This document shows, piece after piece, positions 15,995 to 42,886 of a DNA stretch of 64,000 nt; the stretch's first letter is position 1, and each line of letters begins with the position of its first letter. The position numbers were made by a program, and so were the translations under genes. Source of the DNA: an uncultured Alphaproteobacteria bacterium (GTDB taxonomy: Bacteria > Pseudomonadota > Alphaproteobacteria > Rs-D84); contig CALXMC010000004.1 in assembly GCA_944389385.1 (NCBI GenBank), positions 77,014 to 141,013 on the forward strand, given 5' to 3'. The notes below the pieces were generated by a model that saw nothing but the letters and a program-made list of their open reading frames with translations, did not search any database and was not told where the DNA came from.

Positions 15995-16085
15995 GGAGAC
16001 GTCGCATAGTTGGTCTAGTGCGCTACATTGGAAATGTAGTATACCCGCAAGGGTATCAAGGGTTCGAATCCCTTCGTCTCCGCCA
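15995..16085 (+). tRNA. tRNA-Ser (anticodon GGA), class II with long variable arm, CCA encoded
   Basis: Folded by hand. Acceptor ggagacg/cgtctcc; 3-bp D stem gca/tgc; anticodon stem ctaca/tgtag with loop ttGGAaa; variable arm tatacccgcaagggtatc; T arm aaggg-ttcgaat-ccctt; discriminator g + cca. Confidence 0.9.
16067..16083 (+). repeat. attL-side direct repeat (inside tRNA-Ser 3' end)
   Basis: 17/17 identity with 42785-42801. Identity extends to 25 nt with 2 mismatches (…cgcCAggaata vs …cgcTGggaata). Confidence 0.8.
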
Positions 16086-16115
16086 GGAATACAAAAAATT
16101 CCAAAAATTTATATG

Positions 16116-16151
16116 AAGTCCCACAAACCAGTCGGTTTCTGGGACTTTTTT
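16116..16151 (+). terminator. terminator-like hairpin downstream of tRNA-Ser (island-borne)
   Basis: aagtcccacaaacc-agtc-ggtttctgggactt (one mismatch) followed by a T-run. Confidence 0.5.
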
Positions 16152-16259
16152 AGTGCGTTATTGCTCTGGTATGTCTTTACTTTTCCAAAATCCACCATTT
16201 TACCCACTATGACATACTTCGCCAAAAAATAGGGGGTCAAAAACAGAAGAAAAACATTG

Positions 16260-17843
16260 TTATAAGGAATATTGTTTAGAGTCATTTAAAAGATTTTTGT
16301 ATGTGCAAGTAATAGTGCCGTCAAGTATTTGATTCACTCTTTTCGGATTCATATAAGCAATATCAAGGTATTTGTAAATTGTGCGTGGTGTGGAACCAAC
16401 TTTCCTTGCAACCGTATCCACATCTCCGCATTCTTCGTACATTTCACGATATCGCCACGCAGTTGCAAACGCCTTGACAATAAGGTTGTTGTTTTCTGAT
16501 ACAGTTAAAATCGTATCGTTACCTTTGTTAAACCTGGTGTTTGCAAATGGGCGTAATATAACCGGAACTGTAATAATTACCTGATTCCCGGAAACTATGT
16601 AATCAACAGTATTCGTCGTGTTTTGATTTATATATTCGGCAGACATAAAACCAGCCAAGTTATCTGGATTAGTGTTCAAATAAAACGTAAGTTGATTTTT
16701 AGTGTAAATGATTCTGGTTACAAATGCGCCGATAAATTCTTTTTTGTGCGTGTAGTCCATATCACAGAAGTTTATAGATTTCAAAGCATTGGCATTTTGT
16801 GTCGGCAGATTTTTCATATCGCTGTTCAAAAAGTTGCATATAGTATCAATGCCAATCTTGTCCAGTTTTACTGCTGGTAAATAGAATCCCTTAATTGCGT
16901 AATAGAACAGGTTTTGATTGCTTCTTTGGTTGTAAAATCTTTCGCCAGATGCCGAAAACACTTTGTTTGAAAATATGTTGGGTGATGGGCTTGTCTTTTC
17001 ACGGGTGTTTTTTCTGGATTTTATGATTTCTTGGACTTGGTTAAACAACTCTTCTGATATAATCGGACTATGTTCACCACGAACAGCGGTACCCAGTTTC
17101 TTATGCGTAATTAGTCCGATATAGATTTTGTTGGTTAGAATTAAGTGCAAATTATACGGTTTTAACGGTCGCCCGCCCATAGGTTTATTTTTTATTGTAT
17201 ACCAGTGTTTTGTTGTTATGCCAATTCGTCTGGCATAAGTCGCCGTATCAACAAATGACTGCAACTCCAAATACTTTTCAAACAGTTGTTTTACTTGCTG
17301 GGCTTCTGCTTCGTTTATAACCAACTTTTTGTCTTTTATATCGTATCCTAATGGCGGATTACCACCCATCCATAAGCCCTTGGCTTTACTGGCACGTATT
17401 TTATCACGCACACGTTCACTGGCAACTTCCCGCTCAAACTGTGCAAATGACAGCAACATATTCAGGGTTAGCTTACCCATAGAAGTGCTGGTATCAAATG
17501 CTTGGGTAATGGATACAAAGTTGCAGCCGTATTTATCAAAATACTTCATCATATTGTGAAAATCCAAGATAGAACGGGATAATCGGTCAACCTTGTACAC
17601 AACAACAGTGTTTATCAACCCTTTGGATATATCTTCCAACATTTGCTTTAATGCGGGTCGGTCCATGGTTCCACCAGAAATCGCCGCATCAGTATAAGTG
17701 CGAACATATTCCCAATTATTAAATGCCTGGGACGCAATGTATGCTTTACAAGATTCTTCCTGATTTAATAGGGAATTAAACTCTTGTTCCAACCCATGTT
17801 CTGTTGACTTACGGACATAAACAGCACATTTATTCACCGACAT
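16260..17843 (-). CDS. large serine recombinase (resolvase/invertase N-domain + recombinase + zinc-ribbon-like C-terminal region)
   Basis: CAVYVRKSTEHGLEQEFNSL...SGGTMDRPALKQML...VVVYKVDRLSRS catalytic domain. A long C-terminal extension (~527 aa total) is typical of large serine recombinases. Start at ATG 17843 with RBS aaaggtg. Confidence 0.85.
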   Translation of the reverse strand: MSVNKCAVYVRKSTEHGLEQEFNSLLNQEESCKAYIASQAFNNWEYVRTYTDAAISGGTMDRPALKQMLEDISKGLINTVVVYKVDRLSRSILDFHNMMKYFDKYGCNFVSITQAFDTSTSMGKLTLNMLLSFAQFEREVASERVRDKIRASKAKGLWMGGNPPLGYDIKDKKLVINEAEAQQVKQLFEKYLELQSFVDTATYARRIGITTKHWYTIKNKPMGGRPLKPYNLHLILTNKIYIGLITHKKLGTAVRGEHSPIISEELFNQVQEIIKSRKNTREKTSPSPNIFSNKVFSASGERFYNQRSNQNLFYYAIKGFYLPAVKLDKIGIDTICNFLNSDMKNLPTQNANALKSINFCDMDYTHKKEFIGAFVTRIIYTKNQLTFYLNTNPDNLAGFMSAEYINQNTTNTVDYIVSGNQVIITVPVILRPFANTRFNKGNDTILTVSENNNLIVKAFATAWRYREMYEECGDVDTVARKVGSTPRTIYKYLDIAYMNPKRVNQILDGTITCTYKNLLNDSKQYSL

Positions 17844-17866
17844 TTTTTGCACCTTTTTGTTGTAGC

Positions 17867-17897
17867 AATTACTGCTTACAAACCACAGAAAGTCAAG
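17867..17897 (-). promoter_or_regulatory. paralogous promoter copy A (drives recombinase gene)
   Basis: Reverse strand reads cTTGACTttctgtggtttgtaagcAGTAATt, a -35/17-nt/-10 arrangement. It aligns with the copies at 19222-19252 and 20313-20341. Confidence 0.45.
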
Positions 17898-17954
17898 ATA
17901 TAAACCTTGTTTTTTGTTTGCAGTTTTCATATAATTTCCAAAGAGGGGAAGCAT

Positions 17955-18377
17955 ATGAAAACAGAACTTATACAAAAAAATACAATTTATATTATCACTT
18001 GGTCGTGTTTGTGTTTACTAGTTGTTATATGTATTGTGCGTGATATTACGACTGGTTTTTCTAGCGAATATATTTCATTGTATTTGGTACTAGGTTGGAT
18101 CCCTTTTTATGCCTTGTTTGATGCAATAAAGCAGGAAAAGAAAGATTCCGCTTGGAAAATAAAAATAGCCAAGGACGTTGAACAAGAGTTGGCAAAAACA
18201 AAAAAATCTAGGTTAGAAACACTTATAGAAATGAAAAGAAGTGTTGAGAAAGGCGAGTATGGGTATGGCTATGGATGTGATTATGAAGTAAAAAAATACA
18301 GAAATGATTTATTATTGCAAGTTTTAGAAGAGATGATTGAACTTGAGAGAAAGCATGATCTTATTGAAGATTTATAA
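17955..18377 (+). CDS. hypothetical membrane protein (2 TM + coiled-coil tail)
   Basis: RBS agaggggaag precedes ATG 17955. Two hydrophobic helices are followed by a charged helical C-terminus. Confidence 0.4.
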   Translation: MKTELIQKNTIYIITWSCLCLLVVICIVRDITTGFSSEYISLYLVLGWIPFYALFDAIKQEKKDSAWKIKIAKDVEQELAKTKKSRLETLIEMKRSVEKGEYGYGYGCDYEVKKYRNDLLLQVLEEMIELERKHDLIEDL

Positions 18378-20286: not shown

Positions 20287-20312
20287 GCGACATCCTTTTA
20301 ATCAGTTGCCGC

Positions 20313-20341: not shown

Positions 20342-20348
20342 ATTTTTT

Positions 20349-20366
20349 ACAATATTTTAATATTGT
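20349..20366. promoter_or_regulatory. 18-bp perfect palindrome in divergent control region upstream of the R-M operon
   Basis: acaatatt-tt-aatattgt lies between leftward promoter C and the predicted rightward R-M promoter. Confidence 0.35.
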
Positions 20367-20379
20367 GTCTATATACCCT

Positions 20380-20408
20380 TTGACAACGGTGGCTTGATGT
20401 ATTATATT
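20380..20408 (+). promoter_or_regulatory. predicted sigma70-type promoter of type I R-M operon
   Basis: TTGACA, 17 nt, TATATT. The predicted TSS falls at about the ATG at 20415. Confidence 0.4.
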
Positions 20409-22476: not shown

Positions 22477-22487
22477 AAGGTGATAAT

Positions 22488-23072: not shown

Positions 23073-23089
23073 ACAAAAGGATATAAAAT

Positions 23090-25419: not shown

Positions 25420-25429
25420 GTGATATAAG

Positions 25430-29277: not shown

Positions 29278-29352
29278 AATTTTACAATGGAAGCCTTTTT
29301 CAAAAAATAGTGATTCTACTTTCTGGTTGCTGAGCAACGATTGCTGGACTAA

Positions 29353-29775
29353 GATATAAAGCAATACACAAGTGATGTGGGTTCTGTTATTGTGTATAAC
29401 CAGAGTTTTGAACAAGGGCGCAATACAGAAATGGCGCGTGATTTTCCAGAATATGCAGCGCAATTAAATGCGATAAATGAACGTATGTTGGATTTGCTGA
29501 TACCTTTCCGATATCGTGGGCTGTACCGTCCATGTCAAAACGGCAGTGCGTCAATTAAACAGACTTTACCAGCCTTTGTTCCAGAAATGTCATACGAAAA
29601 TATGGGGATACATAACGGGACCGAGGCCAGCGAACAATTTATGGCCTTTATGCAAGGTAAACAAACGCCAGAACAGACAGCAACAATGATGCAAAACTTG
29701 CACGATTATTGCGGTCAGGATACTTTGGCAATGGTTAAATTGCTGGAAGTAGTGCAAGGCGCGATAAGTAAATAA
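29353..29775 (+). pseudogene. C-terminal fragment of a DUF2779-family protein
   Basis: VYNQSFEQGRNTEMARDFPEYAAQLNAINERMLDLLIPFR...GSASIKQTLPAFVPEMSYENMGI matches only the C-terminal part of DUF2779 proteins. A stop at 29350 in the same frame closes the frame upstream, and there is no proper start. Confidence 0.5.
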
Positions 29776-29778
29776 TCT

Positions 29779-29807
29779 TTGACTTTATAATAAGCATATA
29801 CTACAAT
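29779..29807 (+). promoter_or_regulatory. predicted hipBA promoter
   Basis: TTGACT, 17 nt, TACAAT. Confidence 0.5.
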
Positions 29808-29811
29808 AAAA

Positions 29812-29829
29812 TAGATAAAATAATATCTA
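29812..29829. promoter_or_regulatory. operator-like palindrome downstream of hipBA -10
   Basis: tagata-aaataa-tatcta is a perfect 6-bp inverted repeat. Confidence 0.35.
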
Positions 29830-29842
29830 AAAGTGGCATAAT

Positions 29843-30127
29843 ATGACAAATATAGACAATATATTATCTATTAAAGATGGGATTGCAGAGCGCTTCCGTA
29901 ATGCCAGACGTACGGCTAAAATATCTCAGATGACAATGGCGGAACGCTCTGGGGTGTCTTTGGGCAGTATAAAGCGTTTTGAGCGGACAGGTGAAATATC
30001 ATTATCGTCCTTGATAAAACTTGCGATGGTGTTGGGTTATGAAGAAGATTTTAACGATTTATTCCGTCGCAAGAATTACCAGTCTATATTTGAAGTTGTG
30101 AACGAAGGTAAGTCAAATGCAGAATAA
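29843..30127 (+). CDS. hipB: XRE-family HTH antitoxin (HipB-like)
   Basis: ISQMTMAERSGVSLGSIKRFERTG HTH. It overlaps the hipA start. Confidence 0.75.
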   Translation: MTNIDNILSIKDGIAERFRNARRTAKISQMTMAERSGVSLGSIKRFERTGEISLSSLIKLAMVLGYEEDFNDLFRRKNYQSIFEVVNEGKSNAE

Positions 30128-31205
30128 GATGCTTGTTGTAAAATATCATGGTATGGTTGTTGGTCGTTTGGCCTTGACGCCAGATAATCTTATGGCGTTT
30201 GAATATGATGCTGACTGGTTGCAAAATGGCTTTAGTATATCTCCGTTCAAATTGCCTTTGGAAAAGCGAGTATTCATTGCAAAGCGTAATCCATTTGACG
30301 GTGTGTTTGGCGTGTTTAATGACAGCTTGCCTGATGCGTGGGGGCAATTACTGGTTAATCGTGAATTGCAAAGACGTGGAATCGCACCAAACAGCATATC
30401 TGTTTTAGACAGATTGGCAATAGTTGGTAAGAACGGGCCTGGCGCGTTGGAATATGAGCCTGCCGAAGAAATAAGTGCAGAAGTTGCCGACATAGACTTT
30501 GATGTGATTGCTGGGCAGATAAATAATATTATTAATTCTGGCAATACTGACGATAAGATTACCGAAGAATTGTTTCGTATGGGTGGTTCTTCTGGTGGAA
30601 CAAGACCAAAGATATTCAAAAAGATTGACGGTGAAGATTGGATTATAAAATTCAAAGCCAAGCTTGACCCTGATGATATCGGAAGGCAAGAATTTAATAT
30701 AATGAACTTGGCGCAAAACGCGGGCTTGGACGTACCGGCACATAAACTGTTTAATGATAAATATTTTGGTGTTAAACGGTTTGACCGTAAAGGCGACGGG
30801 GAAAAAGTGTTTATGATTTCTGCATCTGGGTTGTTGGACGCGGATTATAATCAACCTGTACTTGATTATTCAGATTTGTTAGCGCTAACCGCAAAATTGA
30901 CACGAAATATGGTCGAGGTTGAAAAGATGTTTCGTCTGATGGTATTTAATGTCTTTATAAATAACACAGATGACCATGCAAAGAATTTTGCGTTTTTATA
31001 CGACGGGGATTGGCATGTGACACCGGCATTTGATTTAACACAAGCGGTTGGTATGTGGGAACATGCAACGTCTGTAAATGGCAAGGGGCAAAATATTACT
31101 GATGATGATATGCTGGCACTTGCCACCAAGGTCGGTATCCCAGAACGCCACGCAAATGAAATTATTGCAGAAGTAAGAAGCAGTCTGGATAAGATAAAGT
31201 CATAA
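30117..31205 (+). CDS. hipA: HipA-family serine/threonine kinase toxin
   Basis: N-terminal coupling domain (VGRLALTPDNLMAFEYD), GGSSGGTRPK P-loop-like motif, and catalytic NNTDDHAKNFAF. Confidence 0.85.
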   Translation: MQNKMLVVKYHGMVVGRLALTPDNLMAFEYDADWLQNGFSISPFKLPLEKRVFIAKRNPFDGVFGVFNDSLPDAWGQLLVNRELQRRGIAPNSISVLDRLAIVGKNGPGALEYEPAEEISAEVADIDFDVIAGQINNIINSGNTDDKITEELFRMGGSSGGTRPKIFKKIDGEDWIIKFKAKLDPDDIGRQEFNIMNLAQNAGLDVPAHKLFNDKYFGVKRFDRKGDGEKVFMISASGLLDADYNQPVLDYSDLLALTAKLTRNMVEVEKMFRLMVFNVFINNTDDHAKNFAFLYDGDWHVTPAFDLTQAVGMWEHATSVNGKGQNITDDDMLALATKVGIPERHANEIIAEVRSSLDKIKS

Positions 31206-31953: not shown

Positions 31954-32847
31954 TTACCTTTCACTTTCTATGTTTGAACAAATATAAAGTTTCGCAATAT
32001 TTTTTTCAGGTGATTTATTATATTTTAAATCGTCACTGATATTGCATAACATATTTTTTGTGGAATGAAATTTCTGCCTGATGTCAATATGTGGGTCGGA
32101 ATTATCGCGGTATCCAATCAGCAAGTCTTTAGCGCCTGTTCCGTAATAATAGTGCATGTCACGGGCAGGTTCGGCATATTGTGCAGAACCAAAATCTATT
32201 AGTCCTGTAATTGTTCTAGTTTTCTTATCAAACATCATATTGCCAAAATGTAAATCGCAGTGACACAAAACTGGTTTTACTGGGGCGGATATAGATACTT
32301 GTTTATATGTATCAATAAGTGTGTTTATTTGTGATATTAAATCACTAGGTAATATCTTACGAATACTTTCACAAAACAAACCGTCAAAAGTTTTAAGAGA
32401 GTCTATATATGTTTCTGGTGCTTTCCCCAGCCAAGAAAAGTCTGAGTCAGAATTATGGAGTTCTCTTATTACTGCGCCAATTTGTTGCAATATATTTGAT
32501 TTAGTGTTTTCATCAAAAGAATCATGAAGTTCTTGAGAGTATATGGTGTCTGACATAAATGTTTCACCGATAATATATTTACCATTCTCAGCAACTTTGT
32601 GATATAAAATTTTTGGTATCTTAAAATTAATTTTATTTTGTAGATGATTTAATACCTTAACTTCTTTTATTTGGTCGTTGGTGTGTTTTTTATCGTTTGA
32701 TTTAGGAACTTTAAAAACGATTTCTTTGTTTACAAGACAGGTATAAGCATATTTGCCACTTCCCAGCAGAGAAAAATCATTAATTTTTAATTCGTGAAAA
32801 GTATCGGTTATAATGTCTTTTAATTCATCATAGTGGTCACTTAACAT
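31954..32847 (-). CDS. aminoglycoside/small-molecule phosphotransferase (APH family kinase)
   Basis: Brenner motif HCDLHFGNMMFD and GLIDFGSA (DFG). Confidence 0.75.
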   Translation of the reverse strand: MLSDHYDELKDIITDTFHELKINDFSLLGSGKYAYTCLVNKEIVFKVPKSNDKKHTNDQIKEVKVLNHLQNKINFKIPKILYHKVAENGKYIIGETFMSDTIYSQELHDSFDENTKSNILQQIGAVIRELHNSDSDFSWLGKAPETYIDSLKTFDGLFCESIRKILPSDLISQINTLIDTYKQVSISAPVKPVLCHCDLHFGNMMFDKKTRTITGLIDFGSAQYAEPARDMHYYYGTGAKDLLIGYRDNSDPHIDIRQKFHSTKNMLCNISDDLKYNKSPEKNIAKLYICSNIESER

Positions 32848-33176
32848 AATACAAACTCCTCGCATACCAGTTTTATTTCTGGGGTAAAGTTTTCATAATA
32901 TTTCGTAAAGAACTCTTTGTGCTCTTTTTGCCAATAAGTAAGCGATAAATCTCCTTCGCCTTCTTTCTTTGCCCATTCTTCGTCTACATCGCAAAAGCGT
33001 TTAATTTCAACTTTTGTGATTTGTATTTTAATTATCTCACCTTTTGAATTTACAATCTGTTCAATGTCGCCAGGTTTAGACAAAGGCTCAGCATCTAATA
33101 TAGAGCAGGTTGCAGTTTTACGTCCACAACGTACCAGTTCAAACAGTTCGTCATTGTCAAAAGACCATGTTTCCAT
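32841..33176 (-). CDS. ASCH domain protein
   Basis: WSFDNDELFELVRCGRKTATCS and the ~110-aa size fit the ASCH fold family. Confidence 0.6.
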   Translation of the reverse strand: METWSFDNDELFELVRCGRKTATCSILDAEPLSKPGDIEQIVNSKGEIIKIQITKVEIKRFCDVDEEWAKKEGEGDLSLTYWQKEHKEFFTKYYENFTPEIKLVCEEFVLC

Positions 33177-33178
33177 TT

Positions 33179-33640
33179 TTATGCTTTGGTTCTATATTCT
33201 TTTAACTCCGAATATGTTTGTCCGTTTGCAATTGCGTTTAATACTTGTCTGGTTGTTGAAACAACGTTTTTTGTGTTGTTTACTTCATCCAGCGTCATAT
33301 AACGCATCTCAACACACTTATCACCTTCGCAGTTTCTAAGTGTGCCAGAGAATTTCTTTACAGTGAAAAAGAAATCAAAGCTTTCAGTTTTACTTGCCAA
33401 ATTGCTGATGATATGTGAAAACTCGATGTCTTCGGGCAATATATCAATATCCAGTTCTTCTTTTGCTTCACGAATTGCAGCGGCCAGGGCTGTTTCGCCT
33501 TGCTCAATATGACCGGCAGGCATTACCCACCAACCGCCACCATAACTGAAAAAGCCATCGTTACGAAAGAACAATAACGTCTTGTCGCCGTCCTTGATAA
33601 TCAGGTTTATCACACCTTTGAATTTTGCACGTTCTGTCAT
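33179..33640 (-). CDS. NUDIX hydrolase
   Basis: Nudix box GHIEQGETALAAAIREAKEELDI. Confidence 0.8.
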   Translation of the reverse strand: MTERAKFKGVINLIIKDGDKTLLFFRNDGFFSYGGGWWVMPAGHIEQGETALAAAIREAKEELDIDILPEDIEFSHIISNLASKTESFDFFFTVKKFSGTLRNCEGDKCVEMRYMTLDEVNNTKNVVSTTRQVLNAIANGQTYSELKEYRTKA

Positions 33641-34633: not shown

Positions 34634-34753
34634 AGTAAAACTCCTTTGTATTAGTTTATCAGAGTTTTTATTCCGTGCAAGCAATTACAATAAAAAAACT
34701 TGCATTTATAAGCAGATATTATAATCTTTATATAATTTTTTAAGGGGGTAGTT

Positions 34754-36019
34754 ATGGCAAGTTATGTTGCGGGTATTGATTTCGGTACAAGTAATTCTTC
34801 AACTGCAATAACTAATGGGGGGGTGCCGCGATTGGTTGATGTTGAAAACGGTCGTAATACAATTCCAACCGCTTTATATTTTCCTGAAAAATCAAGCGAA
34901 GTTTTTTATGGCAGAACTGCCCAACAAAAATATGTGGATTCTGAAACAGGTGGTCGCTTTATGCGCAGTATGAAGCGAATTTTAGGAACACCTCTGATGG
35001 ACAGCAGTACACAAATAAACGGTCTTATGGTTAAATTTGACGATATAATCGGGGCTTTCGTTTCTTATATGAAGCAAAAAATAGATGCATCAGCAAATGA
35101 AAATGTAGAATCAGTTGTTATGGGACGCCCCGTACATTTTCGTGATAATGACCCAACTGCAGACGATAAAGCGCAACAAGAACTTGAACGTATTACTAAA
35201 AAAGCAGGTTTTAAAAATGTTTGTTTTCAATATGAACCAATAGCTGCTGCTTTTGCACACGAACAAAAAATTAACTCTGAAAAATTAGCGTGCGTTATAG
35301 ATATTGGTGGTGGTACTTCGGACTTTACAGTTATACGTCTTTCACCAGAAAACAGAAATAAAGCAGACAGAACCAAAGACGTTTTGGCAAATACAGGCGT
35401 TAGAATTGGCGGAAATGATTTTGATAAAAATTTATCTTTGAATGCATTTATGCCAGTACTAGGCATGGGAACAGATTATAAAGTTTACGGTAAGGTTTTA
35501 AGCATACCAAACAGTATTTATATAAACTTATCTACCTGGAATCAGGTAAATGATGTTTATAATTATAAAACATTGAATTTAGTAAAAGGCTATCAGACGT
35601 GGGCTTTAGAGCCAGAAAAACTTGCGCGCTTATATCAGGTGGTACAAAACAGGCTGGGACATATAAATTTAAATTATGTTGAAAAAGCAAAAATAGCATT
35701 ATCAAAAGATTTAAGTATTGAAAGTATTTTAGATTTTCTATCAGACAAACCATCTATTTATATAACACGGGAAGAGTTTAATAATTCAATTTCAAACGAT
35801 GTAGAAAAGATAGAGAAATTTTTGTCAGAATGTATTTTGCAAGCGGGTGTAAAAAACGAAGATATAGATTTAGTAATCTTGACGGGTGGTTCAACGGAAG
35901 TTCCACGTGTTTCTGAGATTGTAACGAAATTCTTTCCAAATGCAGAGGTTTCTGCCGGTGATAAATTATCCAGTGTTGGCATGGGGCTTGCCTATGACGC
36001 CAGACGCATATTTTTATAA
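34754..36019 (+). CDS. Hsp70-family ATPase, nucleotide-binding domain only (YegD-like)
   Basis: GIDFGTSNS, DIGGGTSDF and LTGGSTEVP actin-fold/Hsp70 phosphate and adenosine motifs. At 421 aa it has no substrate-binding domain. Confidence 0.8.
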   Translation: MASYVAGIDFGTSNSSTAITNGGVPRLVDVENGRNTIPTALYFPEKSSEVFYGRTAQQKYVDSETGGRFMRSMKRILGTPLMDSSTQINGLMVKFDDIIGAFVSYMKQKIDASANENVESVVMGRPVHFRDNDPTADDKAQQELERITKKAGFKNVCFQYEPIAAAFAHEQKINSEKLACVIDIGGGTSDFTVIRLSPENRNKADRTKDVLANTGVRIGGNDFDKNLSLNAFMPVLGMGTDYKVYGKVLSIPNSIYINLSTWNQVNDVYNYKTLNLVKGYQTWALEPEKLARLYQVVQNRLGHINLNYVEKAKIALSKDLSIESILDFLSDKPSIYITREEFNNSISNDVEKIEKFLSECILQAGVKNEDIDLVILTGGSTEVPRVSEIVTKFFPNAEVSAGDKLSSVGMGLAYDARRIFL

Positions 36020-36026
36020 TTTGACA
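35993..36026 (+). repeat. 34-bp direct repeat, left copy (3' end of Hsp70-like CDS)
   Basis: tatgacgccagacgcatatttttataatttgaca is identical to 40802-40835. Confidence 0.9.
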
Positions 36027-36060
36027 ATTATAGTATAACCATATTCATATAGAATATACG

Positions 36061-39000
36061 TCAGACTATTAAATCTTCTAGCAAAGCTTCTGCTTCATCA
36101 AGTTTAATCGCACATTTTTTGTCTTTTATATACCCATTTGCTAGGCATTTTTTCAGCTTTTCGCCAGTTAAGACGATATATCTAGTTTCTGCTACTAGAT
36201 ATACGAAATAATTATCTTTATATTTAGGGTCATTTGCTTTGGCTTCTTCGTTTGCAGTGATGATAAAGTTCCATTCTCCATCAGATGTTGTTGTAACACT
36301 TTTTACTTCAACATATTTAGTAATATTGTTGTCGTTATAGAATATGTCGTAACCAGCAGCATCACCGCCTTTAGAGGAAGCTAAATTACTTTGTGCGTCA
36401 AATTTTTTTGCATTTGATGAAATCCATTCTACATTGTTTTTGCTGTATTGTTTACATAATATTTCATAAATGCGTTTTTCTGCGTTTGCGCCATTTTCTA
36501 TTTTGATATCTTCGATACGTGGATTATAGCTGCCTCCATTATTTCGTGTGTGTCTATGTGTATGCGTAGTGCCGTTTTTTAGACTTGCTACTGTTACTTG
36601 TGTGTCAGAAACCAAGACCAACGGAGTAGTTAGAACAGTGTTGTTCTTTTGCTGTTGTTGCTGTATATGTATAGCTTTTTGGACGCACTGTTGTTTTAGT
36701 GTATCAAACTGTCCAAACAACAATAGGCTTTGGTTTTTCATGTTTGTTAATGTTTCATCAATAATACTGCGGTCCAAATCGTCTGCGATACGATAAAACT
36801 CTTCTTTCTTAGAATTGGTTAAGTCGCTAATATTTATGCTAGTTTTTATCGTTGAATTTAATTCGTTCATAAAATCGTCTGATAAATTAAAGTATTTTTT
36901 TATCCAGTCTGTCACATCAAAATAAATTGAATTTGCAATTTCATCATCTGCAATATCTTCAATGTTTATGAAAGGCGAAATAACGTCTTTATAAAATCCA
37001 GATTGAGTATTTATATCAGCTGTAATATACTCATTATATTTCAAAGCGGAAAATTGATTTTTAATACTGTTAGCGTATTGGGTTAACAAACGTCGATTAT
37101 ATGGACGTAAATTGACTTGTATATTTGTGTCATTAAATTCATCGATATCTACCCCAATCTTTATTAAAACATCTTTAATGTGTGGGGCATTGTCGATGCT
37201 GTCAAAAGTATCAAAATTAATACGGTTGATAAATTCAGTACAATCAAAATCGTTCTTATTTACTTCGCCTAAGCGTTTAATAAACAGCTGTCTGTTATCA
37301 ATCAAGTCATTCAATTTTTCAATGCTATATCCTTCTCGTAGCAACAAGCTGGCTCGTTCCGTATCGTCTGTGCTCCACAAATTAAAAATCAGACTAGGGC
37401 TGATATTTGACGCTGCTTCTCGTGAAATTATATCAGTAAGCGCTTCTGCAATATGTTTTTTGTCGGGGGTTGTTTGACGGTTTAAATAAATCAAATATTT
37501 ATGAGCATCTTTACAAGCGGCAACTGTATAATTCTTAACAGACAAAAGTTCATTTGTTTGTATTTCATGTGCTTTCTGTGCAATTTGAATGGAAATATTA
37601 TTTGCCACCTTATGCAAATTGCTTGTCCCAAAACATAATAAGTATTTTTTAAAGATATTAAAATTTTTTTCGAATTCGGCATTATCATAATGTAATTCAT
37701 CTGCTTGATATGTCAGTTTTTCGTTTAATTGTTCAATGCCAAAAATTTTTTTGAAGATTTCATGCTGACCTTGTCTTAGTGGTGTAACTAAAATAGGGTG
37801 GTTGTTAACATTAATTGGCTTTCCGCTATGAAAATAAACCTGGGTGCGATCAAAAAACTGTTCGTGGTTTGGTGTTTTTCGAGATGCCCATAGTTTTCCA
37901 GATGTTAAAAATTCTTGTTTGTTCGTATTATAGTCTGAGACTGATAAATGTGATATTTTATCTGGTTTTTGCGCAATAAAATTATATATTTCAGTTGATA
38001 TTTTGCCGCCATTATTTAAATCAGGCAAAGCTAACAAAATGCCATAGAAGTCATCTATTGGCAACTCCGCCGGATTGGTTTTTGTCTCTACGTCTTTCCA
38101 TAAGGCCGGGATGTGGGGCAGTTGGGGTATGAGCTCAGGCCATCGTTGACTGTTTAATATACAATCGCTTGCTTTTCTTTGTGTGCCAGCAAACCATACC
38201 CATTTAGTGTTTAGAATTTGATAAATTATATAACTATCTACAGGTAAGGTTACAAGACCAGGTTTTGAGGAACCCCATAGATATGTTATCGTTGCTCCTT
38301 GTGGAGCCTTGATGATTTGTGGCGCGATTGAATCTAGCCATGATATCAATGTTTCCTTTGGTGCTGTTTTTAATATTTGGTCTAAATTATCTATTGTTTG
38401 TAGAGTTACGTTTTCTATGTTACATGTACGATTATATCCATAGTATTCTTTTATTTTTTGAATAAGATGATCCTTGTAGCCGGCGTCAAGATTTGTTACT
38501 TGTTTGGTTTCTGGAATAGCTTTTCCGTGCACTCTAAAAATAGATTGAATGACACGCACGAAGTCTTCTATTTGATTAGGTGATAAATTAAGTTGTGTTG
38601 GTGTGGCTAATAATTTATATCCTGCTGCTGTCCATATAGTATCGCCAAATTTGTCGTCTGGAAAATACTTGTCTCCAAAATATAGTTGATTTGCCTTGTA
38701 TAGTTGTCCGTCCAGCCCAGGCAGATACAAATCAGAAAAGTCGGCGCGCAGGTCATTGTTTCCTTTATCTTTGTATTCATTATACGCATACATCAAAAAC
38801 TCGGTTGCGTATTTATGATTTCCTCGAACTAATTTATTAATTTTTGTGACAAGACTATTTTTCTCTGTGTGTGAAAAAATTTCTGTCGCAGTGAGATGGT
38901 TATAATATTCGGCAACATCGCGTTCTTTGTTTTTTTCGTTCGCGTTGTGAACCGGGGTAATTTTAAATAGATAATCTCTGTCCTTTGAGTTTATCAAATC

Positions 39001-40635
39001 CATTTGTGCTTCCGCCCAATCTGGAATCTTTCCTATGGTATCGCCGGAATAAAGCACAAGGCTATTGCCCTTCGATAACTCAAAAAAAGTTCCTTGTTGA
39101 GTTTTTAATAACTTTGGCATAGTAGTAAAGCCATGATAATTGTTTGTCCAAAAAATAAAAACATCTATACGTTGTTGTGTATCCCATTCGGACGAATGAC
39201 TGTTTATAAAATTACACAAATCTTTTTCTGATATTTTAGATAAATCTTTGCCTAATATCGACTCTTTTAGTGCGTTTGCGGTTTGTTCTTCTATGTATTC
39301 GGATTTTACTAATTCTTTCAAGTGCGCCAAGTTAGGTTCTGTGTCAGTAAAAAATTCTGGCTTATCCTTGTATGAAAATAATTTTTTTCCGTCCATTGAT
39401 GGAATAATTTTCGCCTCGGATAATTTTTGTTGCAGATTTGCTCGGGCTACTGCATCTTCCCAAAAGCGCAAGTTTTCGGCTAGTTCCGAATTGAAAGTAA
39501 ATAATTCTATTCCCCAGTTCTTATTGTTGTCATGATTTGTAAAATGTGTTACTGCTATGTTTAACAAGTGGATTAATAAGTCTGCCAACAGTTCTTGATT
39601 TGTCGTTGTGTCTGCGGTAAAAGAATCTCGGTTTTGTGTCAGTTGAAATTGGGTGCTGTTCATTAATACTGGCAGCGGCAACTTTTTATCTGTTATTGGG
39701 AATGTATTATAAAGCGTATATGTTTTGTTTTTGTCCCAGTTGCAAGGGACGGCAATTGAGTTGTATTTGTTGTACTTAAAAAAGTAGAATTTATCGTGAG
39801 TAGTGTCACCGTTAGTTTTTTCAATAGTAATAGTTTTTATGTTGTTATTTTCTGTCGTGCTAATGACTATTGTGTGTGACATATCACCAGTATTATCTGT
39901 CAAAATAACTTTATTAATGCGGCGCATAAACAGCATAGAATAAATTTCGTCTGTCTCGAAGGTTTTAAACGCGTTTTTGACTTTTTGAATTTTGTCTGGT
40001 GTCAATCTTAGTTCGATACATGTATCATACGTTTTATTGTATTTTTTATTTGACCATTGTGGTGGAATTTTATCGGTGTCAACATCAAACGGTACAGACA
40101 AAGGTGAAATTAATTCCAGTATATGCGGGTTTGTATCCGTTAAAGTCTTAAAAATAACATTATTGTTCTTGTTCAAAGTATCTAAGACCTTATGTACTCC
40201 AAATTTAGAGAAAGAAACGGCGAAGTCACCAGAATAAATACGTATGTCGTCAGACCAGTTTAGTACGCCTCGAAATCCGATGCCTTTGGCTCCTGTAGTT
40301 TCCTCGTCTTCTGCTTTATCTGAATCAGCACCATTGCATAGACGCATTAGTGTATCGCCAGTAAAAGTTGTGCCGTGATTCATAACTTTTAAACTGTCTT
40401 TGTCTAGTACAAATTCTGTAACCCATTCTGTGCGTATGACTTTATTTAGAGCCGCCTTATTAGCTGCGTCATCTACATTTTGCAATAATTCAAGTAGTAC
40501 GCGTCCAGCATATTCTTTTTTTAACTGATCTTGCGTATTGATATAGCTTCTAGTGTCTGATAAATCACGAGAGTCGCCTGTGTAGGGAAAATATTTTTTT
40601 ATCCAGTGTTCGCGCTGTTCTGTTGCCCAGGTCAT
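36061..40635 (-). CDS. 1524-aa protein: N-terminal sacsin-like GHKL ATPase, large unknown middle, C-terminal DUF3883 (PD-(D/E)xK-like)
   Basis: N-box LELLQNVDDA and glycine box GAKGIGFRGV near the N-terminus. The C-terminus GANAEKRIYEIL...AAGYDIFYNDNNITKYVEVKS...YFVYLV matches the DUF3883 pattern. ATG 40635 has RBS gaagga; a TTG lies at 40659. Confidence 0.8.
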   Translation of the reverse strand: MTWATEQREHWIKKYFPYTGDSRDLSDTRSYINTQDQLKKEYAGRVLLELLQNVDDAANKAALNKVIRTEWVTEFVLDKDSLKVMNHGTTFTGDTLMRLCNGADSDKAEDEETTGAKGIGFRGVLNWSDDIRIYSGDFAVSFSKFGVHKVLDTLNKNNNVIFKTLTDTNPHILELISPLSVPFDVDTDKIPPQWSNKKYNKTYDTCIELRLTPDKIQKVKNAFKTFETDEIYSMLFMRRINKVILTDNTGDMSHTIVISTTENNNIKTITIEKTNGDTTHDKFYFFKYNKYNSIAVPCNWDKNKTYTLYNTFPITDKKLPLPVLMNSTQFQLTQNRDSFTADTTTNQELLADLLIHLLNIAVTHFTNHDNNKNWGIELFTFNSELAENLRFWEDAVARANLQQKLSEAKIIPSMDGKKLFSYKDKPEFFTDTEPNLAHLKELVKSEYIEEQTANALKESILGKDLSKISEKDLCNFINSHSSEWDTQQRIDVFIFWTNNYHGFTTMPKLLKTQQGTFFELSKGNSLVLYSGDTIGKIPDWAEAQMDLINSKDRDYLFKITPVHNANEKNKERDVAEYYNHLTATEIFSHTEKNSLVTKINKLVRGNHKYATEFLMYAYNEYKDKGNNDLRADFSDLYLPGLDGQLYKANQLYFGDKYFPDDKFGDTIWTAAGYKLLATPTQLNLSPNQIEDFVRVIQSIFRVHGKAIPETKQVTNLDAGYKDHLIQKIKEYYGYNRTCNIENVTLQTIDNLDQILKTAPKETLISWLDSIAPQIIKAPQGATITYLWGSSKPGLVTLPVDSYIIYQILNTKWVWFAGTQRKASDCILNSQRWPELIPQLPHIPALWKDVETKTNPAELPIDDFYGILLALPDLNNGGKISTEIYNFIAQKPDKISHLSVSDYNTNKQEFLTSGKLWASRKTPNHEQFFDRTQVYFHSGKPINVNNHPILVTPLRQGQHEIFKKIFGIEQLNEKLTYQADELHYDNAEFEKNFNIFKKYLLCFGTSNLHKVANNISIQIAQKAHEIQTNELLSVKNYTVAACKDAHKYLIYLNRQTTPDKKHIAEALTDIISREAASNISPSLIFNLWSTDDTERASLLLREGYSIEKLNDLIDNRQLFIKRLGEVNKNDFDCTEFINRINFDTFDSIDNAPHIKDVLIKIGVDIDEFNDTNIQVNLRPYNRRLLTQYANSIKNQFSALKYNEYITADINTQSGFYKDVISPFINIEDIADDEIANSIYFDVTDWIKKYFNLSDDFMNELNSTIKTSINISDLTNSKKEEFYRIADDLDRSIIDETLTNMKNQSLLLFGQFDTLKQQCVQKAIHIQQQQQKNNTVLTTPLVLVSDTQVTVASLKNGTTHTHRHTRNNGGSYNPRIEDIKIENGANAEKRIYEILCKQYSKNNVEWISSNAKKFDAQSNLASSKGGDAAGYDIFYNDNNITKYVEVKSVTTTSDGEWNFIITANEEAKANDPKYKDNYFVYLVAETRYIVLTGEKLKKCLANGYIKDKKCAIKLDEAEALLEDLIV

Positions 40636-40801
40636 AGTTCGTCCTTCGTTGTTGAACAAAGTGTAATGTAGTGTGTGGTTCTGAAAAAATCAAGTCTATT
40701 TAGATTGTTAGAAATATGCTTTTTTAATATATGGACCAGTTGGTTTCGATATAATTTGTTGTTTTGCAAATGGAATTAGGCGAAAAAATAGGGAACTTAC
40801 A

Positions 40802-40835
40802 TATGACGCCAGACGCATATTTTTATAATTTGACA
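40802..40835 (+). repeat. 34-bp direct repeat, right copy
   Basis: Identical to 35993-36026. It lies in the intergenic region upstream of the ABC-F gene. Confidence 0.9.
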
Positions 40836-40967
40836 CTTGGGTATTTCTTGATAAAATAAAGGCGTGTATATAACAAAGGTTTGCCAATGAGTCGTATGTA
40901 AACTTATTTTTTCTATCAAGTGCCCGAAATATTCGGGGCAGTTAAAGTTTACATAAAAGGCAATCTT

Positions 40968-42356
40968 ATGAAATCTATCTCTTTATTAAATATCAGTTTT
41001 GCATATTCTGGTACAGACGATTTATTTACAGATTTATCGTACTCATTTAGCGCAGATAAAAAAGTCGCCATTATCGGTGATAATGGGGCAGGGAAAACAA
41101 CACTGTTAAAAATAATTTCTGGCGATTTAGTTGCTGATTCTGGGCGAGTTATTCGTAATGCAAGTTGCCAATTATTGAAACAAATTAATTCTGATGCAAC
41201 AAAAAGTGGCGGTCAAAGTCAGCAACAGGCATTGAGCAGAGTCTTTGATTCCATGGCTGATATTTTATTGCTGGACGAGCCGACCAATAACCTGGACGCA
41301 ACTGCCCGCCAAGATTTTTTCAAAAGGTTGTTTTCTTATCGTGGTGGTGTGGTTATCGTTTCGCATGACGGGGAACTGCTGAATCAAATGGATATGCTGT
41401 TAGAGTTGCATAATGGTAAACTATCTGTGTTTGGAGGAAATTATGATTTTTATGTCGCGCAAAAAAGACAAATGCAAGAAAGTATAGAATCAAAATATAC
41501 AGATGCCCAGAAAGAAATCGCCCGATTAAACGCAACAATTACGAAGGCTCAAAACACCCGCCAACATCACGAAGCAAAACAGCAAAAAGATAAAAATAAT
41601 AAATCTGCAGGCTCAAAAATTGCAGTAAATGCACTTAAAGGCAAAAGTCAAGAAACCGAGGCAAAACGTAGAAAGTTAATACAAGCAAAACTAAATAGGC
41701 AATTAGAGAGTTGTGCTGAATTGTCCGCACAATTACGAAACGATACAATAAAAGTCCCACTGCCGAACGCCAAAGTTTATGATAAAGAAATCGTTAGACT
41801 TGAAAAAGTTTGCTTTTCTTATGGCGAAAAAAGCGTTTTGTCAGATTTTAATTTTACAATGCGTACAGGCGAACGCGTTAGAATAGTCGGTAATAACGGG
41901 GCAGGTAAAACAACGTTGCTGAAACTGATAAGTGGTTTTTTGTACCCATCAGCTGGTTATATAAAAGTATCAGGAAAGGTTGCATATCTGAATCAGGACT
42001 TATCATTACTTAACCACGATAAAAGCGTTGTTGAAAATATCGCAGAGTATGCTGGAATTTTGCAACATAACGCACATGCAATTGCGGCAAATTTTGGTTT
42101 CCGTGGCGATACGTCCAAGAAAAAAGTTGGTGTTTTATCAGGTGGCGAATTATTAAAAGCAACTTTGGCTGCAGTAATAGGGACTGAACAGCAACCCGAC
42201 TTATTGATATTAGACGAACCAACTAATAACTTGGATATAAAAAGCACACTGATTTTAGAAGATGCTTTGAATCAGTATCGTGGCGCAATTTTAATCGTTT
42301 CACACGATGAGGCATTTGTAAACAGATTGCGTATAGATAGCAAACTGATTCTCTAA
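40968..42356 (+). CDS. ABC-F family ATPase (two ABC domains, no TMD; compact, ARE-like size)
   Basis: Two sets of GxNGAGKTTLLK Walker A, SGGQ/SGGE signature and LLLDEPTNNLD Walker B, joined by a charged linker. ATG 40968 has RBS aaaagg. Confidence 0.85.
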   Translation: MKSISLLNISFAYSGTDDLFTDLSYSFSADKKVAIIGDNGAGKTTLLKIISGDLVADSGRVIRNASCQLLKQINSDATKSGGQSQQQALSRVFDSMADILLLDEPTNNLDATARQDFFKRLFSYRGGVVIVSHDGELLNQMDMLLELHNGKLSVFGGNYDFYVAQKRQMQESIESKYTDAQKEIARLNATITKAQNTRQHHEAKQQKDKNNKSAGSKIAVNALKGKSQETEAKRRKLIQAKLNRQLESCAELSAQLRNDTIKVPLPNAKVYDKEIVRLEKVCFSYGEKSVLSDFNFTMRTGERVRIVGNNGAGKTTLLKLISGFLYPSAGYIKVSGKVAYLNQDLSLLNHDKSVVENIAEYAGILQHNAHAIAANFGFRGDTSKKKVGVLSGGELLKATLAAVIGTEQQPDLLILDEPTNNLDIKSTLILEDALNQYRGAILIVSHDEAFVNRLRIDSKLIL

Positions 42357-42784: not shown

Positions 42785-42801
42785 AATCCCTTCGTCTCCG
42801 C
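42785..42801 (+). repeat. attR-side direct repeat
   Basis: aatcccttcgtctccgc is identical to 16067-16083. Confidence 0.8.
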
Positions 42802-42886
42802 TGGGAATAATAAAATTGACATTATGACCAGGTTTGTCGCATTCTTGTGTTATATTGTAAAAATAGCACATGTAAAAGGACCAATC

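What the first reader, a model, noticed from the sequence alone, without database searches (positions are those of the whole stretch)
35993..40835. Giant GHKL...DUF3883 gene is a single-gene cassette bracketed by a perfect 34-bp direct repeat duplicating the 3' end of the Hsp70-like gene
Seen: tatgacgccagacgcatatttttataatttgaca occurs at 35993-36026 (the last codons, the stop and 7 nt beyond of the Hsp70-like CDS) and again at 40802-40835. The 4.8 kb between holds exactly one gene on the opposite strand. That 1524-aa protein starts with a Bergerat-fold N-box (ELLQNVDDA) and glycine box (GAKGIGFRG), as in sacsin/HATPase_c_3 proteins. It ends with a DUF3883 PD-(D/E)xK-like module (GYDI...YVEVKS), and I cannot assign the ~1100 residues between them. 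Inference: an ATPase sensor/switch fused to a nuclease-fold effector, sitting in an island with R-M and TA genes, is a plausible single-protein anti-phage/anti-MGE system. The long target duplication without any recombinase inside suggests an unusual cassette-type mobility.
Basis: partly seen in the sequence, partly recalled or inferred. Interest (0 to 1): 0.75.

Follow-up and report, generated by a model that had tools for sequence, protein, structure and literature searches.

The report
Recombinase-less mobile Tiamat defence cassette
The giant gene is a member of the known single-gene anti-phage system Tiamat (TmtA), and it sits on a 4.8-kb cassette with no recombinase of its own that has nevertheless moved, base-precisely, into the same spot in two different bacterial species.

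Summary
The 34-mer occurs exactly twice (35993-36026 and 40802-40835), and one 1524-aa gene lies between the copies.

The protein is not a new system. It matches PADLOC's TmtA (Tiamat) profile end to end (E 1e-155). It has a sacsin/Hsp90-like GHKL ATPase at the N-terminus, a DUF3883/NOV_C PD-(D/E)xK nuclease at the C-terminus, and invariant catalytic motifs.

The cassette idea holds and can be sharpened.
- Three related MAGs carry the empty site: one 34-mer, with the Hsp70-like gene next to ABC-F.
- A second species (core genes 72-78% identical) carries the same cassette at 99.0-99.5% identity.
- That identity block runs exactly from 36011 to 40836, and the flanks drop to 77-93%.
- There the left repeat copy is host-type (29-30/34) and the right copy is invariant.

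This is an attL/attR pattern. A circular cassette carrying its own copy of the site recombined within a 16-bp core (TTTTTATAATTTGACA). It is not a transposase-style target duplication.

No recombinase lies inside the cassette, and the enzyme is unknown. It could be a site-specific recombinase acting in trans or short-homology recombination.

Six of 34 distant TmtA loci are also bracketed by direct repeats of 26-272 nt, against 2 of 80 neighbouring genes.

Verdict: a known defence family with an unusual, unresolved way of moving.

The parts
34754..36019 (+). Hsp70-like (YegD-type) gene. Its last 27 nt form the left part of the repeat. The gene is itself accessory in this lineage.
   Evidence: Pfam HSP70 E 1e-31; NCBIfam PRK11678 285 bits, below its cut-off. 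The gene is absent in L141 and L149 and reduced to its last 54 codons in L038/L041-type genomes.
35993..36026 (+). Left repeat copy (attL). It consists of a host B arm (35993-36010) and the 16-bp common core TTTTTATAATTTGACA (36011-36026).
   Evidence: Exact repeat. In L038/L041/L045 the 18 nt left of 36011 are host-type, with 4-5 third-codon differences, while the core and everything to its right match the window.
36027..40801 (.). Cassette-specific DNA (4775 bp): 34 nt, then tmtA, then 166 nt of upstream region ending in GGGAACTTACA. It is absent from the empty sites.
   Evidence: Empty sites in L028, L029 and L030 join 36026 directly to 40836. The cassette is 98.96-99.52% identical in a species whose flanks are 77-93% identical. 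No terminal inverted repeats. No match in plasmid or phage records.
36061..40635 (-). tmtA, the single gene of a Tiamat defence system (1524 aa).
   Evidence: PADLOC TmtA PDLC03964 E 1e-155 over the full length. 911 representative relatives, mostly about 1500 aa and colinear.
39853..40512 (-). N-terminal sacsin/Hsp90-like GHKL (Bergerat-fold) ATPase domain, aa 42-261.
   Evidence: NCBIfam P_loop_sacsin 59 bits (cut-off 50). Pfam SACS 30.3 bits, just under its cut-off. PDB sacsin SR1 E 0.001 by sequence. Foldseek finds sacsin SR1 and Hsp90 at E 6e-7. E49, N53, D55, D56, G115, K117, G118, G120, F121 and R122 are invariant.
36187..36390 (-). C-terminal DUF3883/NOV_C PD-(D/E)xK nuclease-fold domain, aa 1416-1483.
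   Evidence: Pfam NOV_C E 1e-8, 35.5 bits (cut-off 22.1). Best Foldseek hits are I-Ssp6803I, Hjc, RecU and HincII, all weak (E 0.02-1). D1430, E1443, V1444 and K1445 are invariant.
40791..40835 (+). Right repeat copy (attR). It consists of the cassette-borne P arm (GGGAACTTACA plus TATGACGCCAGACGCATA) and the 16-bp core (40820-40835).
   Evidence: The P arm is invariant in about 30 contigs of both species, while the sequence to the right of 40836 is host-specific (cttggg... or ccgggg...).
40830..40857 (+). Promoter-like site for ABC-F (TTGACA-16-TAAAAT). Its -35 hexamer is the last 6 nt of the repeat.
   Evidence: Best promoter-like match in the region, 11/12. The duplication therefore keeps both the Hsp70-like stop codon and the ABC-F promoter intact.
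40968..42356 (+). ABC-F ATPase gene, the right-hand neighbour of the insertion site.
   Evidence: NCBIfam ribo_prot_ABC_F 379.4 bits (cut-off 380); Pfam ABC_tran x2 and ABC_tran_Xtn.
15995..17975 (.). Island context: tRNA-Ser(GGA) 15995-16085 and a large serine recombinase 16260-17975(-), the only recombinase found in the window and a candidate trans-acting enzyme.
   Evidence: ARAGORN and Rfam. Pfam Resolvase plus Recombinase. Only a 284-nt remnant remains in L041/L043 and none in L045, which argues against it being required.

Best explanation
The 4.8-kb segment is a discrete, mobile, single-gene defence cassette. Its cargo is tmtA, the one-gene Tiamat anti-phage system.

The protein. TmtA is a roughly 1500-aa protein with three parts: a sacsin/Hsp90-type GHKL ATPase at the N-terminus, a family-specific central region of about 1100 aa, and a PD-(D/E)xK nuclease-fold domain at the C-terminus. 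I infer that the ATPase acts as an ATP-driven switch or clamp that licenses the nuclease against invading (or host) DNA.

The cassette. It carries no recombinase. It carries its own copy of the chromosomal junction between the 3' end of the Hsp70-like gene and the ABC-F promoter. It inserts as a circle by one reciprocal crossover between that copy (attP-like) and the chromosomal copy (attB-like), in the manner of Campbell integration. This leaves one copy on each side.

- In the window's lineage attP and attB are identical over 34 bp, which gives the perfect 34-bp direct repeat.
- In a second species they share only the 16-bp core TTTTTATAATTTGACA, and the crossover fell there.
- Because the site spans both the stop codon and the -35 box, insertion breaks neither neighbouring gene.

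What is shown: the family membership, the empty site, the precise boundaries, the inter-species transfer, and the hybrid attL with invariant attR.

What is inferred: the circular intermediate, the enzyme that acts in trans, and the molecular mechanism of TmtA.
For: Family:
- PADLOC TmtA E 1e-155 over the full length.
- NOV_C and sacsin-type domain hits.
- Foldseek finds GHKL (E 6e-7) and PD-(D/E)xK folds.
- Catalytic residues are invariant.
- 911 colinear relatives.
- Reviews list Tiamat as a single-gene system containing a PD-(D/E)xK domain, with unknown mechanism.

Cassette:
- Single-copy empty sites in L028, L029 and L030, where 36026 joins 40836.
- L041, L045, L047 and L050 come from a species whose core genes are 72-78% identical to the window.
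- They carry the cassette at 98.96-99.52% identity over 4825 nt, against 77-80% in the left flank and 85-93% in the right flank.
- Mismatches start at 36010 on the left and 40837 on the right.
- Four different host-type left arms sit next to one invariant cassette arm on the right.
- There is no recombinase, no terminal inverted repeat and no other gene inside.
- Other indels in the same island have only 6-7 bp of microhomology, so the 34-mer is special.
Against: - No circular junction (P arm, core, P' arm) was seen in any assembled contig, and raw reads could not be examined.
- No recombinase could be tied to the site. The only one in the window, a large serine recombinase, is a remnant or absent in the second species.
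- The core shows only a weak dyad: TATAAT-TTGACA-ATTATA in attL/attP, but 3/10 on the attB side. An AT-rich sequence can give this by chance.
- A 16-bp crossover is very short for RecA.
- No empty site of the second species was recovered.
- Anti-phage activity of this particular protein is untested, and the Tiamat mechanism is unpublished in the library searched.
Confidence: 0.72

Rival explanations
1. Enzyme variant A. A site-specific recombinase encoded elsewhere acts in trans on the 16-bp core. Candidates are the island's large serine recombinase, a Xer-type enzyme or another tyrosine recombinase, or one on a helper element. The cassette would then be a cis-mobilizable element, analogous to CIMEs or ccr-less pseudo-SCC elements.
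For: - The boundaries are base-precise in two species, and the crossover is confined to a 16-bp identity too short for efficient RecA recombination.
- The site lies at the 3' end of a gene and restores it, as in classical integrative elements.
- A 6-6-6 dyad is present in attL/attP.
- A large serine recombinase plus DUF2924 sits in the same island.
- Another large serine recombinase abuts a repeat-bracketed TmtA in L126.
Against: - No recombinase co-varies with the cassette. The large serine recombinase is a 284-nt remnant in L041/L043 and absent in L045.
- The attB right arm lacks the dyad.
- No other cargo was seen flanked by the same core.
- At other TmtA loci the bracketing repeats are unrelated host sequences of very different lengths, 26-272 nt. 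That does not fit one dedicated recombinase.
Confidence: 0.35
2. Enzyme variant B. No dedicated recombinase exists. The cassette excises by host recombination between its flanking repeats and re-enters by homology-driven single crossover, through RecA, a phage single-strand-annealing protein, or rare short-homology recombination. It uses whatever piece of the previous host's locus it carries. Selection by phages then fixes the rare events.
For: - Bracketing repeats at other TmtA loci are simply local host sequence of variable length and 80-97% identity. Examples are 170-180 nt of the dapF 3' end in L061 and about 275 nt of intergenic DNA in L054.
- The P arm carries 18 nt identical to the window-type host arm, plus decayed similarity further left (CTTaCa against CTTgCc). 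This is expected if the arm descends from a former host.
- 34 bp is about the minimal efficient length for RecA and is in the recombineering range (my own knowledge).
Against: - The inter-species event used only 16 bp of identity bounded by mismatches on both sides, which is far below efficient RecA substrates.
- The model does not explain how the first duplication arose.
Confidence: 0.35
3. True target-site duplication. A transposase-like or nuclease-mediated staggered cut 34 bp apart, followed by fill-in, inserted a linear fragment. This could be a one-off NHEJ capture.
For: In the window's own lineage the two copies are identical and equal the single copy at the empty sites.
Against: - In the second species the two copies differ (29-30/34). 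The right copy is window-type rather than host-type, which a local duplication cannot produce.
- There are no terminal inverted repeats and no transposase.
- No known transposon family makes a 34-bp duplication (my own knowledge).
Confidence: 0.05
4. Ordinary allelic exchange, or a remnant. Either the cassette spreads only by double crossover in the flanking genes, or it is what remains of a larger integrase-bearing island after internal deletion. On this view the repeat is a historical scar with no present role.
For: - The surrounding island is highly mosaic with clear recombination tracts, for example 100% identity at 41066-41265 in L041 against 74% in L045.
- Many alternative gene contents occur at this locus.
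- The whole region lies in a tRNA-Ser-associated island that has a recombinase.
Against: - The 99% tract ends within 1-2 nt of the repeat boundaries on both sides in the second species. Flank-mediated exchange would leave donor sequence in the flanks.
- A deletion remnant would not repeatedly leave exactly one gene tightly bracketed at independent loci.
Confidence: 0.1

Closest known systems
Tiamat (TmtA) single-gene anti-phage system (Millman et al. 2022, from memory; PADLOC model PDLC03964)
   Same: End-to-end profile match. About 1500 aa. N-terminal sacsin-type GHKL ATPase, C-terminal DUF3883/NOV_C PD-(D/E)xK domain. No partner gene. Located in a defence island with a type I R-M system and HipBA.
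   Different: Only 45% identical to the nearest 50%-cluster representative (P0031) and 37% to the nearest relative in the 90%-cluster search. The host is an uncultured gut alphaproteobacterium. An ABC-F relative in the search is labelled Candidatus Enterousia. Activity is untested here.
Cis-mobilizable elements (CIMEs) and ccr-less pseudo-SCC elements
   Same: A segment flanked by attL/attR-like direct repeats at the 3' end of a conserved gene. No recombination genes of its own. Empty and occupied sites coexist.
   Different: Those elements are tied to a known helper (an ICESt-type integrase, or the Ccr serine recombinases). No helper was found here. The cargo is a single defence gene and the element is only 4.8 kb.
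Integron gene cassettes
   Same: A single-gene, recombinase-less unit presumed to move as a circle, with the enzyme supplied in trans. Defence genes are known cargo of chromosomal integrons.
   Different: No attC-type imperfect palindrome and no GTTRRRY core. No IntI and no attI platform. The cassette brings its own upstream region and is not in an array.
Integrative elements that target and restore the 3' end of a gene (tRNA- or protein-gene-targeting islands, prophages)
   Same: An identity block that covers the end of the target gene, so the gene stays intact. attL is a hybrid and attR carries the element's arm.
   Different: Those elements encode their own integrase next to an att site. 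This one does not.
Sacsin and plant NO VEIN (NOV) proteins
   Same: The same GHKL subtype (ELLQNxDDA and GxGFxS/R motifs). NOV shares the C-terminal DUF3883 domain.
   Different: Those are eukaryotic proteins with chaperone or developmental roles. The similarity is at domain level only.

Membership tests
Tiamat (TmtA) | Full-length match to a TmtA profile | tested here: met
   PDLC03964 E 1e-155, 519 bits, residues 34-1484 against profile 37-1503/1538. Six other TmtA sub-models hit the N-terminus.
Tiamat (TmtA) | N-terminal sacsin-type GHKL ATPase with N-box and glycine box | tested here: met
   NCBIfam P_loop_sacsin is above its cut-off. Foldseek finds sacsin SR1/Hsp90 at E 6e-7. E49, N53, D55, D56 and G115-R122 are invariant.
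Tiamat (TmtA) | C-terminal DUF3883/NOV_C PD-(D/E)xK domain | tested here: met
   Pfam NOV_C 35.5 bits (cut-off 22.1). D1430...E1443-V-K1445 is invariant. Foldseek best hits are PD-(D/E)xK nucleases, but weak.
Tiamat (TmtA) | Single-gene system with no conserved partner | tested here: met
   The cassette holds one gene. Neighbours differ between contexts.
Tiamat (TmtA) | Protects against phage when expressed | not testable with these tools
   Needs an experiment.
Self-encoded integrative element (genomic island / IME) | Integrase or recombinase gene inside the repeats | tested here: not met
   The only gene inside is tmtA, with no recombinase domain.
CIME / pseudo-SCC-type cis-mobilizable element | att-like direct repeats, empty sites, and an arm that travels with the element | tested here: met
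CIME / pseudo-SCC-type cis-mobilizable element | A helper element or recombinase with the same att specificity | tested here: inconclusive
   A large serine recombinase is in the island, but it is not conserved with the cassette. The rest of the genome was not available.
Integron cassette | attC site, and an IntI/attI platform nearby | tested here: not met
   No attC-like palindrome at the cassette ends. No integron integrase among the annotated window genes.
Transposon / IS | Terminal inverted repeats, a transposase, and a short fixed target duplication made of host sequence | tested here: not met
   No terminal inverted repeats and no transposase. In the second species the right copy is not host-type.
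IMEX (Xer/dif-exploiting element) | Integration at a 28-bp dif site (11-6-11) at the replication terminus | tested here: inconclusive
   By eye the core matches the E. coli dif arms in only 5-7 of 11 positions and needs an 8-bp spacer. The organism's own dif site and terminus are unknown.

The most novel reading that the evidence does not exclude
Tiamat genes may belong to a so far undescribed class of recombinase-less, single-gene 'carry-your-own-target' cassettes. Each would take along a piece of its former insertion site, re-insert next to the homologous sequence in a new genome, and so spread between species without a plasmid, phage or integrase. In the boldest form, TmtA's own Hjc/RecU-like PD-(D/E)xK nuclease and GHKL ATPase would take part in cutting or resolving the DNA, making the defence protein also the mobility enzyme.
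Probability: 0.12. Interest if true: 0.85.

Novelty: new variant of a known kind. Interest (0 to 1): 0.6.

Why it matters
Many defence systems sit in chromosomal hotspots with no visible mobility gene, and how they arrive there is an open question. One survey reports Tiamat as almost always chromosomal (PMC10482375).

This locus supplies all the states needed for a direct test:
- an empty site;
- an occupied site with a perfect repeat;
- the same cassette in a second species, with a hybrid left junction that maps the crossover to 16 bp.

The hypothesis can therefore be tested directly. Does a circle form? Which host or helper enzyme recombines the core? Is repeat-bracketing a general route by which single-gene defence systems spread?

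The protein itself adds only one more divergent Tiamat member.

Tried and rejected
- **Dispersed repeat:** rejected. The window has only two copies, with none in JGI metagenome contigs or IMG/VR.
- **Assembly artefact:** rejected. Many independent assemblies agree. Logan unitigs break exactly where a 34-bp repeat must break a k=31 graph.
- **Transposon:** no terminal inverted repeats, and the copies are unequal in the second species.
- **Integron:** no attC and no IntI.
- **ncRNA in or near the cassette:** Rfam finds only the tRNA-Ser.
- **Plasmid or phage origin:** no megablast match.
- **Same style of repeat at other indels of the island:** only 6-7 bp of microhomology, or recombination between hipA-like segments.
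- **Identical TmtA at an unrelated locus:** not found. All 43 cluster members examined sit at this junction, in two flank types.
- **Other cargo at the same core:** searched through ABC-F relatives. I found only variants that lack the Hsp70-like gene.
- **Central ~1100 aa:** no Pfam family even at E=1 and no convincing PDB fold match. It is conserved and colinear across the family.
- **Original Tiamat description:** the preprint held in the library does not use the name, so that attribution rests on memory plus secondary papers.

Full report
**1. The observation**

The 34-mer TATGACGCCAGACGCATATTTTTATAATTTGACA is present exactly twice, at 35993-36026 and 40802-40835. No third copy appears even with three mismatches, and none appears in 100 shuffles.

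The Hsp70-like CDS ends at 36019. The left copy therefore covers its last eight codons, the stop codon and 7 nt beyond. With imperfect edges the repeat extends to 43 nt at 93% identity.

Between the copies lies one long ORF on the minus strand, 36061-40635, encoding 1524 aa. Gene callers on more than 15 independent metagenome contigs agree on it.

**2. The protein**

PADLOC's TmtA model PDLC03964 matches residues 34-1484 against profile positions 37-1503 of 1538, with E 1e-155. TmtA is the single gene of the Tiamat defence system. Reviews list Tiamat as a one-gene system carrying a PD-(D/E)xK domain, with unknown mechanism. I found no mechanistic paper.

Domain evidence:
- N-terminus:
  - NCBIfam's sacsin-type ATP-binding domain is above its cut-off.
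  - Pfam SACS is just under its cut-off.
  - Sacsin SR1 is the only PDB sequence hit.
  - An AlphaFold model of residues 1-800 (pLDDT 75) finds sacsin SR1 and Hsp90 family members by Foldseek, E 6e-7.
- C-terminus:
  - Pfam NOV_C (DUF3883) is above its cut-off.
  - The model of residues 751-1524 (pLDDT 78) has PD-(D/E)xK nucleases as its best, though weak, matches: I-Ssp6803I, Hjc, RecU and HincII.
- Conserved residues:
  - Across 15 homologues of 21-38% identity, E49, N53, D55, D56, G115, K117, G118, G120, F121, R122, D1430, E1443, V1444 and K1445 are invariant.
- Central region:
  - The ~1100 central residues match no Pfam family even at E=1.
  - They are colinear in most of 911 representative relatives, which are about 1500 aa long.

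**3. It is an insertion: empty sites**

The Hsp70-like protein led to related genomes labelled uncultured Alphaproteobacteria. An ABC-F relative is labelled Candidatus Enterousia.

L028, L029 and L030 have a single 34-mer. It is followed directly by the sequence that lies to the right of the second copy in the window, and then by ABC-F. Relative to these genomes, the window has gained 4809 bp: 4775 bp of new DNA plus one repeat copy.

The last six bases of the repeat, TTGACA, are the -35 hexamer of the best promoter-like site in the region, and that site faces ABC-F. The duplication therefore leaves both the Hsp70-like reading frame and the ABC-F promoter intact.

**4. The cassette has moved between species, and the junctions show how**

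A 99%-identical TmtA (P0001 and other members of the same 90% cluster) lies in a second kind of genome: L038-L053.

These genomes hold the same chromosomal neighbourhood (rpoZ, tRNA-Ser region, island, ABC-F), but their core genes are only 72-78% identical to the window. There the Hsp70-like gene is reduced to its last 54 codons. It abuts a different gene block: FtsK-like NTPases, a WCX protein and ankyrin proteins.

Identity to the window:

| Region | Identity |
|---|---|
| Cassette, 4825 nt | 98.96-99.52% |
| 150 nt to the left | 77-80% |
| 300 nt to the right | 85-93% |

- On the left, mismatches occur at 35992, 35998, 36001, 36007 and 36010, and then none.
- On the right, the first mismatch is at 40837.

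Side by side:
- The left junction has a host-specific arm in four variants, then TTTTTATAATTTGACA, then the cassette end ATTATAGTATAACC.
- The right junction has an invariant cassette arm (...AATAGGGAACTTACATATGACGCCAGACGCATA), the same 16-mer, and then host-specific sequence (cttggg... or ccgggg...).

This is the B-O-P' / P-O-B' pattern of a single reciprocal crossover between a site on the cassette and a site on the chromosome.

It excludes two alternatives:
- A duplication generated locally from host sequence, because in the second species the right copy is not host-type.
- Ordinary exchange through the flanking genes, because no donor sequence extends beyond the repeats on either side.

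The perfect 34-bp repeat in the window arises because this lineage's chromosomal site happens to equal the cassette-borne copy over 34 bp. The minimal shared core is 16 bp.

**5. What does the recombining?**

Nothing inside the cassette can do it. It has one gene, no recombinase domain and no terminal inverted repeats.

The window's only recombinase is a large serine recombinase with a DUF2924 neighbour, next to tRNA-Ser at 16.3-18.9 kb. In the second species it is a 284-nt remnant or absent, so it cannot be required there now.

The core contains TATAAT-TTGACA-ATTATA on the cassette side, but the chromosomal right arm lacks that symmetry. I give this little weight.

Two sub-hypotheses remain about equally likely:
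- an unidentified site-specific enzyme acting in trans;
- homology-driven single crossover by host or phage recombination functions, with rare events fixed by selection.

The first is favoured by the 16-bp crossover and the base precision. The second is favoured by the survey in section 6.

**6. Other Tiamat loci**

A homologue about 30% identical, in another organism (L054), is bracketed by a ~275-nt direct repeat.

I fetched 80 further TmtA loci from metagenome contigs and compared the 1.5 kb upstream with the 1.5 kb downstream of each full-length gene. Repeats far above the inverted-orientation control (control maximum 26 bits) were found as follows:

| Locus | Repeat length | Identity |
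|---|---|---|
| L054 | 272 nt | 95% |
| L126 | 217 nt | 90% |
| L061 | 141 nt | 95% |
| L082 | 37 nt | 97% |
| L138 | 43 nt | 91% |
| L085 | 26 nt | 96% |

- The L085 repeat is a hairpin-like sequence and may be REP-like, so it is doubtful.
- In a self-comparison of 39 loci (465 kb), 8 of the 12 direct-repeat pairs found bracket TmtA.
- After removing duplicate loci, 6 of 34 TmtA genes are bracketed, against 2 of 80 other genes of at least 250 aa in the same loci (Fisher p=0.0085).
- The repeats are unrelated host sequences. In L061 the repeat is the last ~170 nt of dapF with its stop codon, and the bracket holds DUF6680 plus TmtA.

The sample is small and the repeats may have mixed origins. 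Still, repeat-bracketed, near single-gene Tiamat insertions recur.

**7. Context**

The cassette lies inside a low-GC region of about 16-50 kb. That region starts at tRNA-Ser and contains:
- the serine recombinase;
- a type I R-M system with inserted DUF4145/DUF6680 genes;
- HipBA;
- a peptidase/NUDIX/APH/ASCH operon.

Related genomes show many alternative contents at the same locus. They include versions without the Hsp70-like gene, so that gene is itself accessory.

**8. Verdict**

The protein is a divergent member of a known defence family. The cassette interpretation is supported and refined into a Campbell-type, carry-your-own-site model whose enzyme is unknown.

That last point is the interesting part. 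As far as I could find, it has not been described for single-gene defence systems.

Noticed in passing
window 15995-16097 and 42785-42815: The 3' end of tRNA-Ser(GGA) plus its downstream bases (AATCCCTTCGTCTCCGCCAGGAATACAAAAA) is repeated 27/31 between ABC-F and the next gene. This suggests a ~26.7-kb tRNA-Ser-integrated island that encloses the R-M system, HipBA, the Hsp70-like gene, TmtA and ABC-F. A large serine recombinase (16260-17975, -) and a DUF2924 gene (18381-18860, -) sit at its left end.
   Followed up: partly
window 18663-30708: A ~12-kb block is absent from L028. It holds a PNP_UDP_1 gene, an hsdS fragment, hsdM, DUF4145, DUF6680, hsdS, hsdR, a YgjP-like gene, a DUF2779 fragment and hipB. 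Its junctions lie in two hipA-like segments (about 18640 and 30700), so the difference looks like recombination between hipA copies.
   Followed up: partly
window 31966-33192: Two genes (an APH-family kinase and an ASCH-domain protein) are inserted inside the S66/NUDIX/S51 operon relative to L028 and L030. Only a few bases of microhomology are present at the junctions.
   Followed up: partly
window 29372-29774: The 132-aa DUF2779 ORF is a 97-98% identical fragment of a 488-aa DUF2779/Cas4-like gene that is intact in L038 and L149.
   Followed up: no
window 34713-34725; L141 7794-8000; L149 8826-9000: The Hsp70-like gene is itself present or absent between genomes (absent in L141 and L149). Its promoter (-10 region AGATATTATAAT) resembles the sequence at its 3' end (AGACGCATATTTTTATAAT). 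L149, which lacks the gene, has a single AGACATATTTTTATAATTTGACA. This may mean nested cassettes at one site. However, the motif is short and AT-rich, and about 2 copies per window are expected by chance.
   Followed up: partly
L041 14779-22484, L045, L050: In the second species the HipBA-to-Hsp70 stretch is replaced by another block: two FtsK/HerA-like NTPases (one with NACHT/ankyrin hints), a WCX-domain protein, ankyrin proteins and a metallo-beta-lactamase-fold protein. This may be another defence module.
   Followed up: no
L054 7530-7888, 12518-12791, 14623-14767: Three copies of one ~275-nt intergenic repeat separate TmtA from a Fic-NUDIX pair (R-TmtA-R-Fic-NUDIX-R). This is an array-like arrangement with no integrase within 8 kb.
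   Followed up: partly
L061 3952-4131 and 9605-9784: The last ~170 nt of dapF, with its stop codon, is duplicated at about 89% identity around a DUF6680 + TmtA pair. DUF6680 also occurs inside the window's R-M operon (23090-23650).
   Followed up: partly
L126 5804-6030 / 6000-7400: The downstream copy of a 217-227-nt repeat that brackets TmtA overlaps the 5' end of a large serine recombinase gene.
   Followed up: no
L005-L010, L015-L017, L038-L040: Logan unitigs end at window positions 36022, 40806 and 40831. These are exactly where a 34-bp repeat must break a k=31 assembly graph, which explains many short contigs at this locus.
   Followed up: yes
L139-L149: Other versions of this island carry a reverse-transcriptase gene, Hachiman (HamA plus a helicase) and Gabija-like genes (an OLD-type TOPRIM ATPase plus a UvrD helicase). 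The locus is therefore a general defence hotspot.
   Followed up: no
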